The position numbers were made by a program, and so were the translations under genes. This document shows, one piece after another, positions 1,796 through 34,067 of a stretch of DNA of 64,000 nucleotides; the stretch's first letter is position 1; every line of letters starts with the position of its first letter. The stretch is from Parcubacteria group bacterium Gr01-1014_29 (GTDB lineage Bacteria > Patescibacteriota > Minisyncoccia > Ryanbacterales > 2-02-FULL-48-12). The notes beneath the pieces are model-generated. The model was not told the DNA's origin, made no database searches, and saw only the letters and a program-made list of their open reading frames with translations. The stretch is from assembly GCA_007376195.1 (NCBI GenBank), contig VMFT01000002.1, positions 1,273-65,272 of the forward strand, in the 5' to 3' direction.

Positions 1796-3071
1796 ACAGA
1801 TTTCAACAATTCTAAAACGTAAGCTTGATGATCTTGCCGCCTACGGCAGTCTTGATGCGGAAACGCGCCGTAATGCTCTGAAAGGAGAGTTGCAGTTTTA
1901 TGTTCTCAATTTCATTTACCATCACCCGGAATACAACGCGTGGATCATGTATGGCGGTTCGGCACTTCGTATTATCCATGAGCTTGACCGCATGTCAGTT
2001 GACTTGGATTTTGAGATTTCTCATGCGGTAACGGAGAAGTTTTTAGAGGAATTGAAAAAAGAAGTTGAGGATTACTTCACTAATACCTTTGGCGCGGGAG
2101 CTGATTTTCTTACGATAAAAATAATCACCGGTAGAGGTCTGCTCTTGAAGTTCCACGTTGGTGAAGAGCTAAGCTCCGGACACCCCTCAAAGCAGGTGCA
2201 TGTAAAAATTGATCTCAATCACTTTGTCGCTCCCAAGACTGTCACTGAACGTCGGCCGATAAACCGCAATCAGTTATCCTTTGTGATCATCACCTACAAT
2301 ATGTCCTCGCTTATGGCGAGCAAGCTTGCCGCTATTTTCCTCCGTGGTACCCGTGGCGTGGGAGAAGCAACTTACGAGGAAAAAGGACGCGATATTTATG
2401 ATCTCCTTTGGTACATGAATAAAAAAGTAGTGCCAGACTTCGATTACCTCATAGCCAAAGGCATTGACGCGAAAGACCCTCGCGCGCTTTTCGATAAACT
2501 CACGCTTCAGATCAACAAAGTGAGCGATAAAAATCTTGAGCAGGACCTTGAGCCTCTGTTTGTGGATAAGACGTATATTAGAAATTTGCTCAAGAACTGG
2601 CGAGAGAGCTATCTACGACTTTTGGATGAATATAAAATTCGCAACATTAAAGAACTCGAGAGTATTGGTATACATCAGGACTTTCGCACAGATACTTTTT
2701 CTTTCGTGTATTGGTATACGACGGAGGACGGCGGATCGATCAGGGTTGTTTATAACCTAAGCGAGTACTGGATTATATTCGGCGAGGGTAATTTGCAGGT
2801 TGAAATAGATAAGAAACTGGAAGAGAGGATGGATTTCAGGAGCAACAGGGTTAGCAGTCGTCCGACTTCGCAGGATAGGCTTAAGCAGTACGCGACCCTG
2901 TTTTATCAGAAAACGGAAAAGTACTTCAAGAAAACGAATCGGATCATGCTCGGGGACAGCATTATCACTAAGATTATTCGGATAACGGCCGATAATTTGA
3001 ACCAGAAGGAACAGATCGTGCTTAATAAGTCGGCACTGCTTTCTTGTGAGCTTGATGACTTACTGAAATAA
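1788..3071 (+). CDS. AbiEii/AbiGii-family nucleotidyltransferase toxin (DUF1814) with about 130-aa C-terminal extension
   Basis: Motif MYGGSALRIIHELDRMSVDLDFE matches the GG(T/S)ALR...S.DlDF nucleotidyltransferase signature of AbiEii. Translationally coupled to AbiEi. Confidence 0.6.
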   Translation: MSEQISTILKRKLDDLAAYGSLDAETRRNALKGELQFYVLNFIYHHPEYNAWIMYGGSALRIIHELDRMSVDLDFEISHAVTEKFLEELKKEVEDYFTNTFGAGADFLTIKIITGRGLLLKFHVGEELSSGHPSKQVHVKIDLNHFVAPKTVTERRPINRNQLSFVIITYNMSSLMASKLAAIFLRGTRGVGEATYEEKGRDIYDLLWYMNKKVVPDFDYLIAKGIDAKDPRALFDKLTLQINKVSDKNLEQDLEPLFVDKTYIRNLLKNWRESYLRLLDEYKIRNIKELESIGIHQDFRTDTFSFVYWYTTEDGGSIRVVYNLSEYWIIFGEGNLQVEIDKKLEERMDFRSNRVSSRPTSQDRLKQYATLFYQKTEKYFKKTNRIMLGDSIITKIIRITADNLNQKEQIVLNKSALLSCELDDLLK

Positions 3072-3088
3072 ATTTTAGGAAAAGTTTG

Positions 3089-3334
3089 TTACAAAATTTT
3101 ATGACTTGAAGGAAGCCACTCTATGAGTTTTTTGCGATGCTTGTCAATTGACCATTCGTCGCTGTTTTTGAAAAGAGAAGGATAAAGCGACTGAAATTTT
3201 TTCAGTGTAGCAACTGATGCTTGAGTAAAATTTGCCGGTATGGTGCTATTGTACATTTCCATAAAAACAGGCAGAGTTGTTGCGATTTGATTGATTTCTA
3301 GATCGTTTTTTTTCTTTCCCTTCATGTTTATCAT
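3089..3334 (-). CDS. hypothetical small protein (81 aa)
   Basis: ORF only; AT-rich; no recognisable motif. Confidence 0.3.
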   Translation of the reverse strand: MINMKGKKKNDLEINQIATTLPVFMEMYNSTIPANFTQASVATLKKFQSLYPSLFKNSDEWSIDKHRKKLIEWLPSSHKIL

Positions 3335-3383
3335 ACTATCATAGCTTACTCAAAACATCAATCTCTTTATGTGTATGCATAAA

Positions 3384-3425
3384 AAATGCCCGGGAGAAAT
3401 TGTTCTCATCGGGCTTTTTGCTGTT
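3384..3425 (-). terminator. rho-independent terminator (minus strand)
   Basis: On the minus strand: gcccgatgagaacaatttctcccgggc stem followed by attttttat. Confidence 0.4.
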
Positions 3426-3817
3426 ACTTTTTGCCGCTGCGTTTTTTGGCATAGCAGCGGTTCAGGAACGATCTCGCTACTTCCCACTTGGTATGCGGGT
3501 CATTTGTTATGTAGTTGGGAATTACACCACGCTCATCAGTGGTAGTACCGTCCTTAAAAAATATGCGTCCGTTTGTAAATTTTAACACAGCACCGTCTGT
3601 AAATGTGTGTGTTATTTGCATTCTTTACTGTCGGCAATACCATATCGTTTGCAATGCGGATCATAACGCATTCATGCACCGCTTTTTTATCCAGCGGATA
3701 GAGCCACTGCTCTTCAAGTACACGCAGCAACTCGTCATAAGTGGTTTGGTCGCCACTGCTTATGCTAGTACTGCTCACAATTGTTGCGAGCACGGCCAAT
3801 ACGATAAAGCGCTTCAT
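3424..3817 (-). pseudogene. small secreted protein split over two frames at a T6/A6 homopolymer; apparent frameshift or sequencing error
   Basis: ORFs 3554..3817 (signal peptide MKRFIVLAVLATIVSS) and 3424..3621 overlap in different frames across the aaaaaa run at 3558-3563. A terminator follows directly at 3424. Confidence 0.3.
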
Positions 3818-31737: not shown

Positions 31738-31753
31738 AGAAAAAACCGGCTTG

Positions 31754-32280
31754 CTACCGGTTTTGTGATTTGAAAGAGGAGTGATGCAAGTTATATTCTT
31801 TGAGATAGTTACGGAGTGTCCGCGTGGTCAATTTTGATATCTGAGCCGCTCTGGTCATGTTGCCTTGCGTTCTAAATAAGATCGCAGTAATGTATTGTTT
31901 CCTAGCGTCTGCGAGTGTCGGCAGTACCTCATCATATTTGATGAGCGGCGAAGGTATTTCGATGTGTGATAAAGAGATTTCAACAGGCGGCAAAGGTATT
32001 TCGTGAAGCTGGAAGAAGTCGCTAGCCCCAACAACTTGTTTATCCACTCGCTTTTTGATATATTGCAACTTTGTTGGTGGTGTGCGATTTTTTCTATAAA
32101 ATTTTTGTTAGAAATATAATCATCCACTTGGCTTTTACTTAGTTCCCGAGTAGTAAAAAGAAACATTAAAATCTCATAGTAAACGTGCTCCGCACTTCTT
32201 TTTAGTTTTTTCTCGGATATACTCATAGCTTTCCAGTGAACGGTTGATTGAGAATTGATTATCTTGGTGTTGGAACTCAA
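31754..32280 (-). pseudogene. AT-rich gene for a Fis-type HTH protein, apparently frameshifted (two overlapping ORFs)
   Basis: ORF 31754..32068 carries a C-terminal HTH (MTRAAQISKLTTRTLRNYLKEY). ORF 31855..32280 overlaps it in another frame; T-runs sit at 32088-32108. Confidence 0.3.
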
Positions 32281-32333
32281 GTTAGGCGCTATCTATCAAC
32301 TCTTGCAAGACATAACTACCCCAGATTTTAATT

Positions 32334-32408
32334 TGGTGTCCTCGGCAGGAATTGAACCTGCATCAAAGGCTTAGGACGCCCCTATTCTGTCCGTTGAACT
32401 ACGAGGAC
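32334..32408 (-). tRNA. tRNA-Arg (anticodon CCT)
   Basis: Minus strand: GTCCTCG acceptor, D-loop with GG, anticodon loop gTCCTaa, T-arm GCAGG-TTCAATT-CCTGC, 3' CGAGGAC-A-CCA. Manual fold; the anticodon stem has two G-U pairs. Confidence 0.65.
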
Positions 32409-33028
32409 ATAATTAACTGATTAAGTCTTTTTATAATGCAAAATATTTCTTTTAATAACAATCCTCCTTTTTTAACTCTGACTCTACACATGCCATATTT
32501 AAGTTTACCTTTCTTTTTACCTTTTAAAACATTCACGCTCGTCTCTTTCCCTAGCTTGATTCCGGTTACTTCAGACCAAAATTTAAGGCAGTTTTTCTTG
32601 TTGAGATCTTCATATATTCTTACTGAAATTTTAAGGTCGCTGTTCTGAATTCCGAAAGTAGTTCGTAAGGTATAAAGAAATAATCTAATTAAATCCGGAT
32701 CAGTATTGGAAAGTCCAAAATCTTTTTTTGATCCCTCAGCCCAATATAAAGAAGTTGCTATAAGGGCTAAATCTTTTCGTGTCAAACAATCCATTAATTG
32801 TTCGGCTTTTCCCTTAGCTGTATCCCAATGTCGCTCAGAAATGATTTTACTTGCATTACGGCGGTTAAGCCATCTTTGATAATGTTTAGGGAGTATGTTA
32901 ATATTTTTTATGTATCTCGATGCGGTTGATTTCGAAATTTCGCACATGCGGCTTATTTCGGGTACACTATAACCCCGAGCTCTTAAACTTCGGATTTCGG
33001 AGATTTTATCATCTTGGATAGGTAGCAT
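32399..33028 (-). CDS. AT-rich protein with N-terminal resolvase-type HTH and LAGLIDADG-like (LYWAEGS) homing-endonuclease-like domain
   Basis: GYSVPEISRMCEISKSTASRYIKN HTH; IATSLYWAEGSKK resembles a single-motif LAGLIDADG. GC content is far below its surroundings; the stop overlaps the tRNA-Arg 5' end by about 10 nt. Confidence 0.4.
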   Translation of the reverse strand: MLPIQDDKISEIRSLRARGYSVPEISRMCEISKSTASRYIKNINILPKHYQRWLNRRNASKIISERHWDTAKGKAEQLMDCLTRKDLALIATSLYWAEGSKKDFGLSNTDPDLIRLFLYTLRTTFGIQNSDLKISVRIYEDLNKKNCLKFWSEVTGIKLGKETSVNVLKGKKKGKLKYGMCRVRVKKGGLLLKEIFCIIKRLNQLIMSS

Positions 33029-33074
33029 ATACCCAGAGTATCAGTACATACAATTATGTCAAGGACGGACTTGC

Positions 33075-33110
33075 TCTATCCAGTTGAGCTATGGGGGCTT
33101 AGGCCATGGC
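33075..33110 (-). other. tRNA 5'-half-like fragment (acceptor plus D-arm) without a matching 3' half
   Basis: Minus strand reads GCCCCCA-TA-GCTC-AACTGGAT-AGAGC-A-AGTCC.. then loses tRNA structure; a second partial copy (GAGCGGATAGAGCAA) lies about 35 nt upstream. Confidence 0.35.
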
Positions 33111-33272
33111 GGGTAGGTGTTTGCTCTATCCGCTCCGACGCTCTGCTTTGCCCGCCCAGAGGCGGGTCCGCCTCGGGCGGAAACTACGAGGGCATGTTGC
33201 CATAGTATAAGAAAATGGTAGTATTGTCTTGTAGCAACTTGAAATACATCAATCCCGAAAAGGAGGGTTTAT

Positions 33273-33734
33273 ATGCCGCTACCTGGAATTCTTGAAAACC
33301 GCTTTTGCCCTCTTTGCGGGTTTCAACTCGAAGGCGATAATTTTCTTGAAACAATAGAGCAAAGCGAAGAAGAATATTATTTGTGCCTGCAAGGTAAACA
33401 CACCGCACCATGTGTGGTGCAAGAAGAACGGCACCACGAAGAATGGCCGGTAAGTTTTTTTGTGGTATGGCGGGCAGACGGCGCAAAAATCAAAAGCGAG
33501 AAGAGATGGTGTTTGTTTTGCGGCTTTCCAACAGATGAATGTTATACATATATTGATTTTACTGCGGAGAGTCAACAAAAAGGGTGTGTGTTCTCTGTTT
33601 GCTCTAGCGTAGAATCCCATGCGTGGCAAGAAGTTCATAATGAGACATGCATTTTCTTTGTAGAGGAAACAGTAGAGAAGTTGGCTCTTTTAGAGCACAT
33701 GTTCATGTTTCTTAGTTGGGGGTTGCCAAATTGA
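33273..33734 (+). CDS. hypothetical Cys-rich protein (two CxxC pairs; zinc-ribbon-like)
   Basis: CPLCGF ... CLFCGF pairs. Confidence 0.4.
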   Translation: MPLPGILENRFCPLCGFQLEGDNFLETIEQSEEEYYLCLQGKHTAPCVVQEERHHEEWPVSFFVVWRADGAKIKSEKRWCLFCGFPTDECYTYIDFTAESQQKGCVFSVCSSVESHAWQEVHNETCIFFVEETVEKLALLEHMFMFLSWGLPN

Positions 33735-33941: not shown

Positions 33942-34014
<73 letters not shown>

Positions 34015-34067
34015 CACTTAGAAAAAGGCAAGCCAGAGGAAGCCGCCTCGCTTCGCTCGGCGACTGA

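What the first reader, a model, noticed from the sequence alone, without database searches (positions are those of the whole stretch)
31754..33200. AT-rich island abutting tRNA-Arg(CCT): HTH plus LAGLIDADG-like ORF overlapping the tRNA 5' end, a frameshifted HTH gene, tRNA-like fragments and paired GC hairpins
The 209-aa ORF (32399-33028) has GC far below the window average and a resolvase-type HTH, a LYWAEGS motif and downstream hydrophobic periodicity reminiscent of single-motif LAGLIDADG endonucleases. Its stop overlaps the 5' end of tRNA-Arg. Upstream of it (minus strand) lies a tRNA 5'-half look-alike (GCCCCCA-TA-GCTC-AACTGGAT-AGAGC-A-AGTCC) that loses structure at the anticodon arm, and a second partial copy. 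Two back-to-back GC hairpins follow at about 33140-33175, and a 12-nt near-copy of the tRNA-Arg 5' end (gccctcgtagtt) sits at about 33184-33195. The neighbouring 31754-32280 HTH gene is frameshifted. Together this looks like the decayed footprint of a tRNA-targeting mobile element (integrative element or intron/homing-endonuclease type), not ordinary intergenic DNA.
Basis: partly seen in the sequence, partly recalled or inferred. Interest (0 to 1): 0.6.

Follow-up and report, generated by a model that had tools for sequence, protein, structure and literature searches.

The report
Selfish cassette that replaces tRNA-Arg
A 0.7-kb gene cassette has split the original tRNA-Arg(CCU) gene of this tiny-genome (CPR) bacterium right after the anticodon and supplied a new, altered copy of that tRNA; it belongs to a large, undescribed protein family whose branches each sit in front of one particular tRNA gene.

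Summary
They are an intact tRNA-Arg(CCU), a 209-aa AT-rich ORF whose stop lies inside the tRNA, a perfect 37-nt tRNA 5' half upstream, and two older fragments. The LAGLIDADG assignment failed every test, and the "frameshifted HTH gene" has no homologues.

The ORF belongs to a family of about 2,400 clusters at 50% identity, almost all from Patescibacteria. In 80 of 80 related loci it directly abuts the 5' end of a tRNA gene on the same strand. Protein clades match tRNA identity exactly: Arg-CCU, Lys-CUU, Gln-UUG and Trp-CCA, with extra copies at Ala-GGC and Arg-UCU.

Nineteen "filled" loci share both flanking genes with ORF-free loci. There an intact "standard" tRNA-Arg(CCU) sits where the filled loci carry only its first 36 nt.

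The break, CCT|TGACA, forms a -35 box. The tRNA downstream of the ORF has a different anticodon arm.

Best reading: an intron-less, homing-type selfish cassette that splits the resident tRNA gene and substitutes a probably resistant copy. The insertion is shown. Nuclease activity is inferred. No description was found in the literature searched.

The parts
32334..32408 (-). Functional tRNA-Arg(CCU) with encoded CCA. It is the replacement copy delivered with the cassette. Its anticodon arm is GGGGC-GT-CCT-AA-GCCTT, not the 'standard' NNYCC-GT-CCT-AA-GGRNN.
   Evidence: ARAGORN; Rfam tRNA 60 bits; anticodon-arm comparison.
32399..33028 (-). 209-aa ORF. It has an N-terminal HTH (residues about 9-43), a basic helix (RWLxRRNASK) and a roughly 125-aa alpha/beta C-terminal domain with invariant YWxEGxK...NxD. 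The stop codon lies inside the tRNA (10-nt overlap).
33035..33062 (-). Promoter-like junction. The -35 TTGACA (33057-33062) has its first T supplied by the anticodon's T36. A 16-nt spacer follows, then -10 TACTCT (33035-33040), then 6 nt to the ATG at 33028. This implies a leaderless or near-leaderless mRNA.
   Evidence: Sequence. The same geometry appears in 19 of the 23 Arg-type loci (of 39 scanned) that have a promoter match of at least 9/12; 15 of 200 control windows scored that high.
33062..33098 (-). Remnant A: a perfect 5' half (nt 1-36/37) of a 'standard' tRNA-Arg(CCU) gene, GCCCCCATAGCTCAACTGGATAGAGCAAGTCCGTCCT. It is cut off right after the anticodon.
   Evidence: It is 33/37 identical to intact ORF-free tRNAs but 25/37 to the tRNA downstream.
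33106..33146 (-). Remnant B: a decayed D-arm/anticodon-arm fragment. The exact 11-nt copy GGATAGAGCAA lies at 33121-33131.
   Evidence: repeat family D9.
33151..33180 (.). Two adjacent GC-rich hairpins (33168-33180 and 33151-33166) lying between fragments C and B. Their role is unknown and they are not statistically unusual.
33182..33195 (-). Fragment C: ATGCCCTCGTAGTT, a copy of the first 12 nt of a tRNA-Arg gene plus 2 upstream bases.
   Evidence: D5, 13/14 identical to 32397-32410.
31754..32280 (-). Adjacent AT-rich stretch downstream of the tRNA with two overlapping ORFs (104 aa with a Fis-type HTH_8; 141 aa). It is not shown to belong to the cassette.
   Evidence: It is absent from the closest relative L201.

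Best explanation
The region is a compact selfish cassette of about 0.7 kb, made of a promoter, an HTH-protein gene and a tRNA. It was inserted into the resident 'standard' tRNA-Arg(CCU) gene within one nucleotide of position 36/37, at the 3' edge of the anticodon.

The first 36 nt of the old gene remain as a dead 5' half (remnant A). The old 3' half is gone. A complete tRNA-Arg(CCU) with a different anticodon arm follows the ORF with no spacer and keeps the cell supplied with this tRNA.

The junction ...CCT|TGACA... creates the -35 box of the ORF's promoter. The ORF and tRNA are then transcribed together.

Inferred mechanism: the ORF product is a sequence-specific DNA endonuclease (HTH plus a new alpha/beta domain with invariant E98, K101, N108 and D110). 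It recognises the D-arm/anticodon-arm sequence of the standard allele and cuts in the anticodon loop. The break is repaired from a cassette-bearing copy, with the tRNA halves serving as homology arms. This is intron-less homing. The cassette's own tRNA escapes cutting because its anticodon arm is changed.

Sister clades of the protein do the same at other tRNA genes.

Shown: the architecture, the insertion site, filled versus empty alleles, the clade-to-tRNA specificity and purifying selection.

Inferred: nuclease activity, the cut site, resistance of the new tRNA and the repair route.
For: 1. In 80 of 80 related loci the ORF homologue is followed on the same strand by a tRNA. The gap is -81 to +62 nt in 77 of the 79 loci where a downstream tRNA was called. 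The exceptions are L054 (+135) and the pseudogene L056. In L040 the tRNA is cut by the contig end.
2. In a neighbour-joining tree every tRNA type is monophyletic: Arg-CCU 50, Lys-CUU 20, Gln-UUG 7 and Trp-CCA 2. Further copies sit before Ala-GGC and Arg-UCU and inside phage tRNA arrays.
3. A tRNA 5'-half remnant lies upstream of the ORF in 14 of 51 Arg-type loci, scoring above all 249 control windows. In 12 of the 14 it ends 31-41 nt before the ATG; L049 (10 nt) and L038 (91 nt) also end right after CCT, and the weakest hit, L030, is a partial match that stops before the anticodon, 4 nt from a GTG start. Four remnants are full length. The Arg-UCU copy in L026 also has a remnant ending ...TCT|GACA.
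4. Filled versus empty: 19 ORF-bearing loci share collinear homologous genes on both sides with 20 ORF-free loci. The distance from the upstream gene to the tRNA is 727-953 nt in 17 of the 19 filled loci (two outliers: L001 1,496 and L035 1,858). It is 6-113 nt in the best-matching empty locus for 14 of the 19, and 190-545 nt for the other five. Worked example: in L137 the glutaredoxin-like gene is followed after 12 nt by an intact tRNA. In L033 the homologous gene is followed after 15 nt by the 36-nt remnant, then the promoter, ORF and new tRNA.
5. At least 117 intact tRNA-Arg(CCU) genes carrying the remnant's sequence (GGATAGARCA-NNNCC-GT-CCT-AA-GG) have no ORF upstream. Only 2 of 50 ORF-linked tRNAs keep CCGTCCTAA.
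6. Remnants resemble ORF-free tRNAs more than their own neighbour tRNA: 33/37, 35/36, 34/36 and 30/37 against 25/37, 28/36, 29/36 and 25/37.
7. ORF GC is below flank GC in 76 of 79 loci, p = 2.6e-14.
8. dN/dS is 0.10-0.16 in the four close CPR pairs with an estimable dS, and 0.29 for the Streptomyces pair. One pseudogene was seen (L056).
9. A conserved junction promoter is present.
10. Precedent exists for homing endonucleases that cut tRNA genes: T4 SegB (PMC2330249) and the enzyme specific for the tRNA-fMet anticodon region, cited in PMC3984707.
Against: 1. No nuclease or recombinase domain is recognisable. Pfam, NCBIfam, PHROGs, a PDB profile search and Foldseek against PDB and BFVD find only the N-terminal HTH.
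2. Identical proteins (P0020, P0003) were found in one genomic context each across all 24 contigs read per protein, from many samples, so there is no sign of very recent jumps.
3. Strong purifying selection and few pseudogenes would also fit a host-beneficial gene.
4. Most loci have lost the remnant. Remnants were clear in only 2 Lys-type loci, and none was detected in the Gln, Trp or Ala types.
5. No 3'-half remnant is ever seen apart from L056, and the new tRNA differs from the standard allele in both halves. The repair route is therefore unclear.
6. The sample of ORF-free tRNAs was selected by pattern. The frequency of the 'standard' arm among all CPR tRNA-Arg(CCU) genes is unknown.
Confidence: 0.6

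Rival explanations
1. A minimal integrative element moved by a new kind of small site-specific recombinase or transposase (HTH plus an unknown catalytic domain). An attP that carries a tRNA 5' part recombines with the tRNA gene in the anticodon loop. This leaves the host 5' half on the left and rebuilds the tRNA on the right.
For: The same left-remnant / right-intact-tRNA layout is expected. The N-terminal HTH resembles those of transposases and resolvases: Sleeping Beauty PAI, IS21 IstA, HTH_7 and HTH_38. The insertion point is precise.
Against: Conservative recombination in the loop would keep the host 3' half. In fact the anticodon-stem 3' strand and T-arm of the functional tRNA match the new 5' half, not the remnant. 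Only 4-6 nt of common core lie at the two junctions. No fold match to serine or tyrosine recombinases or to DDE enzymes was found. No inverted terminal repeats were found.
Confidence: 0.13
2. A domesticated, vertically inherited DNA-binding protein, for example a regulator or guardian of the downstream tRNA, or a nuclease now used against foreign DNA that carries standard tRNA genes. The insertion was ancient and the gene no longer moves.
For: dN/dS is about 0.1-0.16. Nearly all copies are intact. Identical proteins always sit in one context. The ORF is tightly co-transcribed with the tRNA. Remnants have decayed in most loci.
Against: 1. Filled and empty alleles occur in the same synteny across related genomes.
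2. Pristine remnants occur in distant branches of the protein tree, in loci whose ORFs are only 32-38% identical to the window's.
3. The window's remnant is perfect even though dS to its closest relative is about 1.0 and that relative's remnant has decayed.
4. ORFs are systematically AT-rich relative to their flanks.
5. Relatives occur in Streptomyces and in phage tRNA arrays.
Confidence: 0.2
3. One reading: the decayed footprint of an integrative element, or of an intron carrying a single-motif LAGLIDADG homing endonuclease.
For: An invariant acidic residue followed by Gly (E98-G99) sits at the C-terminal end of a predicted helix that leads into a strand, as in LAGLIDADG helices. The insertion is in the anticodon loop, where group I introns of bacterial tRNA genes also sit (my own knowledge).
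Against: No LAGLIDADG Pfam hit at E <= 1 in any subfamily. hhalign against I-CreI gives a probability of 0.5%. No LAGLIDADG structure appears among the Foldseek hits. The predicted order of secondary-structure elements is a-b-a-b-a-b-b-a. No group I or II intron signal was found. No spliceable tRNA was found. There is no integrase and no att repeat. The ORF is intact, not decayed.
Confidence: 0.05

Closest known systems
Free-standing homing endonucleases with intron-less homing, especially phage T4 SegB (GIY-YIG) in the T4 tRNA gene cluster (PMC2330249; also PMC8421152)
   Same: It is a stand-alone selfish gene sitting among or next to tRNA genes, with a target inside a tRNA gene. It spreads together with flanking tRNA DNA. 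The gene is present or absent in otherwise collinear genomes.
   Different: The protein here has no GIY-YIG, HNH or other known nuclease domain. It lives in bacterial (CPR) chromosomes. It always abuts the 5' end of one specific tRNA. It leaves a 36-nt dead 5' half and supplies an altered replacement tRNA. Cleavage has not been demonstrated.
Group I introns in bacterial tRNA anticodon loops and their endonucleases: the tRNA-fMet intron enzyme specific for the anticodon region (cited in PMC3984707), and the tRNA-Arg(CCU) introns of alpha-proteobacteria (my own recollection of Reinhold-Hurek & Shub 1992 and Paquin et al. 1999, not checked here)
   Same: Same kind of target (the anticodon loop of a tRNA gene, including tRNA-Arg(CCU)). 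Same sporadic distribution. The selfish insertion keeps the tRNA functional.
   Different: There is no ribozyme and no splicing. Function is kept by duplicating and replacing the gene rather than by removing the insert from the RNA.
Integrase-type genomic islands and prophages that insert into tRNA genes and carry a tRNA segment to rebuild the gene
   Same: The element carries tRNA sequence, so an intact tRNA survives insertion. A partial tRNA copy marks one boundary.
   Different: Those elements duplicate the 3' end, encode tyrosine or serine integrases and are many kilobases long. Here the 5' half is left behind, there is no integrase or att repeat, and the whole unit is about 0.7 kb.
LAGLIDADG homing endonucleases in the introns of CPR 16S/23S rRNA genes (mentioned in PMC10714607)
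   Same: They are selfish endonuclease genes inside stable-RNA genes of the same bacterial group.
   Different: Those are intron-encoded and are recognisable LAGLIDADG proteins. This family is neither.

Membership tests
LAGLIDADG homing endonuclease | Match to the LAGLIDADG_1/2/3 sequence profiles | tested here: not met
   No hit at E <= 1 for the window ORF or for seven members of other subfamilies. A profile search of PDB sequences finds only the HTH. hhalign of the family alignment against I-CreI gives a probability of 0.5%.
LAGLIDADG homing endonuclease | alpha-beta-beta-alpha-beta-beta-alpha core fold similar to solved enzymes | tested here: not met
LAGLIDADG homing endonuclease | Conserved acidic residue followed by Gly at the C-terminal end of the interface helix | tested here: met
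   E98-G99 are invariant in 79 sequences of all subfamilies and lie at the end of predicted helix 84-98. This feature alone is not specific.
Free-standing homing endonuclease (intron-less homing) | The gene is present next to or in its target in some genomes and absent from collinear relatives that carry an uninterrupted target | tested here: met
   19 filled loci against 20 empty loci with homologous genes on both sides.
Free-standing homing endonuclease (intron-less homing) | The carrier's own copy of the target differs in sequence (self-immunity) | tested here: inconclusive
   Only 2 of 50 ORF-linked tRNAs keep the CCGTCCTAA of the remnants and empty alleles. Resistance itself is untested, and the empty set was chosen by pattern.
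Free-standing homing endonuclease (intron-less homing) | Site-specific double-strand cleavage of the endonuclease-free allele | not testable with these tools
   Needs purified protein and substrate DNA.
Free-standing homing endonuclease (intron-less homing) | Catalytic domain of one of the six known families (LAGLIDADG, HNH, His-Cys, GIY-YIG, PD-(D/E)xK, EDxHD; PMC3984707) | tested here: not met
Group I intron in a tRNA gene | Ribozyme core, and exons that join into a tRNA | tested here: not met
   No Intron_gpI or group II match at E <= 10. Only 35 nt lie between the remnant and the ORF. ARAGORN with intron options finds no split tRNA. The remnant's stems do not pair with the downstream 3' half (read from the sequences).
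Integrase-type tRNA-targeting island | Integrase gene and a direct repeat of the tRNA 3' end | tested here: not met
   No integrase domain. No repeat of the 3' end in the window. A 3'-end repeat is present in only 1 of about 80 loci (L056).
tRNA gene (for the fragment at 33062-33098) | Complete cloverleaf | tested here: not met
   Only nt 1-36/37 are present. It is not called by ARAGORN or Rfam. nhmmer with 5'-half profiles gives E = 4.5e-10.

The most novel reading that the evidence does not exclude
This is a seventh, structurally new family of homing-type endonucleases (HTH plus a YWxEGxK...NxD domain). It has radiated in CPR bacteria into clades, each retargeted to one tRNA gene: Arg-CCU, Arg-UCU, Lys-CUU, Gln-UUG, Trp-CCA and Ala-GGC, with relatives in phage tRNA arrays. 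It spreads by a mode not described before. It cuts the resident tRNA gene at the anticodon and overwrites it with a resistant tRNA carried by the cassette. In effect it is a natural 'cleave-and-rescue' gene drive acting on essential RNA genes. It may shape tRNA sequence variation across a whole bacterial superphylum.
Probability: 0.4. Interest if true: 0.88.

Novelty: new variant of a known kind. Interest (0 to 1): 0.76.

Why it matters
If correct, it would matter in four ways.

1. It adds a new enzyme family and a new strategy to the list of selfish DNA. Instead of hiding in a self-splicing intron, the element keeps its host alive by bringing a replacement for the gene it destroys.

2. It would explain two things seen here. 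Many Patescibacteria carry a 'hypothetical protein' jammed against particular tRNA genes. Those tRNAs also have unusual anticodon arms.

3. It would offer a set of naturally retargeted, compact (about 210-aa) sequence-specific DNA-recognition proteins.

4. It would give genome annotators a rule: an ORF of this family marks a displaced tRNA gene. In GenBank the window's ORF is annotated as a truncated 131-aa uncharacterised protein.

Tried and rejected
1. Intron or split-tRNA reading. Rfam finds no intron. ARAGORN with introns up to 1,200 nt and lowered thresholds gives only spurious calls. The remnant's acceptor and anticodon strands do not pair with the downstream tRNA's 3' half.

2. LAGLIDADG membership. 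Rejected at the profile, profile-profile and Foldseek levels.

3. Integrase island. There is no integrase and no 3'-end repeat.

4. GC hairpins as a repeated mini-element or as terminators. The sequence is unique in the window, the energy is not unusual, and the hairpins lie in a divergent intergenic region.

5. A second family member in front of the window's tRNA-Lys(CUU) or elsewhere in the 64 kb. None was found.

6. Frameshifted HTH gene. Both ORFs returned zero homologues, so this is undecidable.

7. Longer family members (396-560 aa) as a clue to a fused known domain. Only HTH domains were found.

8. Recent mobility via identical proteins in different contexts. Not seen.

10. Seven literature searches found no description of this family or architecture. 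The library is incomplete, so this is not proof of novelty.
Full report
**What is in the window.** ARAGORN and Rfam find an intact tRNA-Arg(CCU) with an encoded CCA at 32334-32408 on the minus strand. A 209-aa ORF (32399-33028, minus) ends with a TAG that is tRNA nucleotides 8-10. It is AT-rich, at 34% GC against 44% in the flanks.

Reading the minus strand upstream of the ATG gives the following:
- 6 nt, then TACTCT, then 16 nt, then TTGACA.
- The first T of that -35-like hexamer is the last base of a 37-nt stretch (33062-33098), GCCCCCA-TA-GCTC-AACTGGAT-AGAGC-A-AGTCC-GT-CCT. This is a flawless tRNA-Arg 5' half running through the anticodon.
- Further upstream lie an 11-nt exact copy of its D-arm (33121-33131), two GC hairpins (33151-33180) and a 12-nt copy of a tRNA-Arg 5' end (33182-33193).

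The hairpins are real but not statistically unusual and are not repeated elsewhere in the window. The neighbouring 'frameshifted HTH gene' consists of two overlapping ORFs. The 104-aa ORF has a Fis-type HTH and is already the size of Fis. Neither ORF has any homologue. That claim therefore stays open, and I do not count the stretch as part of the element.

**The protein.** Only the N-terminal HTH is recognisable. It resembles the HTH_23, HTH_38 and HTH_7 families and the Sleeping Beauty PAI and IS21 IstA HTH domains.

The family alignment gives a confident AlphaFold model (pLDDT 92.8). Its C-terminal 125 residues run a-b-a-b-a-b-b-a. Several searches were run on this domain:
- Foldseek against the PDB and against viral models gives nothing below E = 0.01 and no LAGLIDADG entry.
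- Pfam, NCBIfam and PHROGs are silent on it in every subfamily.
- hhalign against I-CreI gives a probability of 0.5%.

Across 79 sequences of all subfamilies Y95, W96, E98, G99, K101, N108, D110, W151 and G179 are invariant. An acidic residue plus Gly at the end of a helix does recall LAGLIDADG enzymes. Even so, membership failed every test I could run.

The family is large, with 2,400 clusters at 50% identity at E <= 1e-10. It is almost entirely from Patescibacteria. The window itself is Parcubacteria bacterium Gr01-1014_29, where GenBank annotates only a 131-aa piece of the ORF. The gene is under purifying selection, with dN/dS of 0.10-0.16 in the close CPR pairs where dS could be estimated, including 0.10 against the closest relative.

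**A fixed link to tRNA genes.** I fetched 80 loci from species-representative genomes. In 79 of them the ORF is followed on the same strand by a tRNA. The gap is -81 to +62 nt, apart from L054 (+135) and one pseudogene, L056. In the 80th locus the tRNA is cut by the contig end but is visible.

Which tRNA follows depends on the protein clade. In a neighbour-joining tree Arg-CCU (50), Lys-CUU (20), Gln-UUG (7, including two Streptomyces) and Trp-CCA (2) are each monophyletic. Second copies in the same loci sit in front of tRNA-Ala(GGC) (L003, L005, L129) and tRNA-Arg(UCU) (L026). Distant relatives (25-29% identity) lie inside tRNA arrays of large viral contigs.

The C-terminal tails of many homologues are simply the translated tRNA...SPRSSMDRTxxS, with a stop at U36-A37-A38.

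**The half-tRNA marks an insertion.**
- *Frequency of remnants.* Profile searches find a tRNA-Arg 5'-half remnant upstream of the ORF in 14 of 51 Arg-type loci, above all 249 control windows. In 12 of the 14 it ends 31-41 nt before the ATG; L049 (10 nt) and L038 (91 nt) also end right after CCT, and the weakest hit, L030, is a partial match that stops before the anticodon, 4 nt from a GTG start. Four remnants are full length. The Arg-UCU copy in L026 has one ending ...CTTCT|GACAAG.
- *No 3' remnants.* 3'-half remnants are absent, with one exception of another kind in L056.
- *Remnants match ORF-free tRNAs.* The remnants all carry ...(Y)CC-GT-CCT. A metagenome scan for intact tRNAs with that D-arm and anticodon arm hit its 120-locus limit. 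117 of these are intact tRNA-Arg(CCU) genes, and none has the ORF in front.
- *Filled versus empty loci.* Twenty of the ORF-free loci share homologous genes on both sides, in the same order, with 19 ORF-bearing loci. The distance from the upstream gene to the tRNA is 727-953 nt in 17 of the 19 filled loci (outliers: L001 1,496 and L035 1,858). It is 6-113 nt in the best-matching empty locus for 14 of the 19, and 190-545 nt for the other five.
- *Worked example.* In L137 a glutaredoxin-like gene is followed after 12 nt by the intact tRNA. In L033 the homologous gene is followed after 15 nt by the first 36 nt of that tRNA, then TGAACG..., a promoter, the ORF and a new tRNA.
- *Similarity of the remnants.* Remnants match ORF-free tRNAs at 30-35 of 36-37 positions, but their own downstream tRNA at only 25-29.
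- *Altered anticodon arm.* The ORF-linked tRNAs have different anticodon arms, mostly xxxCA-CT-CCT-AA-CGxxx or xxxGA-CT-CCT-AA-GCxxx, often with position 31 unpaired. Only 2 of 50 keep CCGTCCTAA.

I conclude that the cassette entered the standard tRNA-Arg(CCU) gene within one base of position 36/37, and that the tRNA now in use came with it.

**Expression signals.** 23 of 39 Arg-type loci have a sigma-70-type match of at least 9/12 in the 60 nt before the ATG, against 15 of 200 control windows. In 19 of those 23 the -10 hexamer ends 6-9 nt before the ATG, which suggests a leaderless message. The -35 box is completed by the anticodon's T. There is no room for a separate tRNA promoter, so the ORF and tRNA are probably co-transcribed (inference). 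Where the stop codon lies inside the tRNA, as in the window, RNase P cleavage would leave a non-stop mRNA (inference, unexplained).

**How it probably works.** The pattern matches a homing-type selfish gene. It is sporadic, sits at one exact site in a conserved sequence, is AT-richer than its host in 76 of 79 loci (p = 2.6e-14), has a changed target in the carrier, and has clades with different targets.

I infer that the protein recognises the D-arm/anticodon-arm DNA of the standard allele and cuts in the anticodon loop. I further infer that repair from a cassette-bearing copy, with the tRNA halves as homology arms, copies the ORF and the resistant tRNA into the broken gene.

Endonucleases that cut tRNA genes and spread tRNA regions are known: T4 SegB (PMC2330249) and the enzyme of the tRNA-fMet intron specific for the anticodon region (cited in PMC3984707). 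Here there is no intron. Rfam finds none, only 35 nt separate the remnant from the ORF, and ARAGORN with intron options finds no spliceable tRNA.

**Evidence that cuts the other way.**
- No catalytic domain is identified.
- Identical proteins always occur in one genomic context.
- Selection on the protein is strong and pseudogenes are rare, which would also fit a domesticated gene.
- Remnants are rare outside the Arg clades.
- The fate of the old 3' half is not explained.

One observation argues for continuing activity. The window's remnant is perfect. In its closest relative (L201, same tRNA-Lys/ORF/tRNA-Arg block, 81% protein identity, dS about 1.0) the remnant has decayed to 17/37 identity. 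Either the window's copy was renewed recently or the remnant is under selection.

**Verdict.** What is there is one member of a large family of tRNA-specific replacement cassettes. I found no description of it in seven literature searches, but the library is incomplete.

Noticed in passing
window 33273-33734 (+), upstream of tRNA-Lys(CUU) at 33942-34015: A 153-aa ORF with two CxxC zinc-ribbon-like motifs lies between the Arg cassette and tRNA-Lys. It is absent from the closest relative L201, where tRNA-Lys directly adjoins the cassette. It is unrelated to the family studied here.
   Followed up: partly
L003 1170-1814 (-), L005 1077-1700 (-), L129 203-799 (-): A second family member sits in front of tRNA-Ala(GGC), between tRNA-Val and tRNA-Ala. 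In L002 and L007 those two tRNAs are only 6-31 nt apart. Two cassettes of different clades can therefore lie side by side.
   Followed up: partly
L026 601-1463: An Arg(UCU)-type cassette with its own 5'-half remnant ending ...CTGGCCTTCT|GACAAG. The break point is the same as in the Arg(CCU) type.
   Followed up: partly
L202-L209 (IMG/VR contigs of up to 498 kb): Distant relatives (25-29% identity) are embedded in dense tRNA arrays of large viral contigs. Some abut tRNA-Cys, tRNA-Val or tRNA-His.
   Followed up: partly
L056 2956-3834: This is the only pseudogenised copy: the ORF is cut to 116 aa. The same locus has a 22-nt exact repeat of the tRNA 3' end 125 nt downstream of the tRNA, which looks like the att site of an unrelated integrase-type element.
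   Followed up: no
ORF-linked tRNAs of L001-L049: Many have position 31 opposite C39 or G39 (unpaired), giving in effect a 9-nt anticodon loop. They have C32 or U32 where the ORF-free allele has the unusual G32.
   Followed up: partly
L072 and L075 (Streptomyces), 2812-3776: GC-rich (65-68%) family members of 283-289 aa, with an extra N-terminal HTH, sit in front of tRNA-Gln(UUG). The family has therefore reached a cultivable phylum where it could be tested genetically.
   Followed up: no
L223 2049-2315 and L225 1772-2038 (-): An 88-aa GIY-YIG gene is called just upstream of the cassette in 2 of the 8 contigs shown for this protein; no gene is called there in the other six.
   Followed up: no
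window 32397-32410 and 33182-33195: The fragment at 33182-33195 shares with the functional tRNA two extra bases upstream of +1 (ATG...). It may therefore derive from an earlier cassette's ORF-tRNA junction rather than from a standard tRNA gene. The extra 2 nt could also be chance.
   Followed up: no
window 31742-31764: A terminator-like hairpin with T-runs on both sides lies between the converging 624-aa EamA/glycoside-hydrolase gene and the 104-aa HTH ORF.
   Followed up: no
P0217, P0240, P0247, P0250, P0251, P0264: Some family members are 396-560 aa long and match the profile in two or three separate stretches. They are possibly tandem-fused versions.
   Followed up: partly
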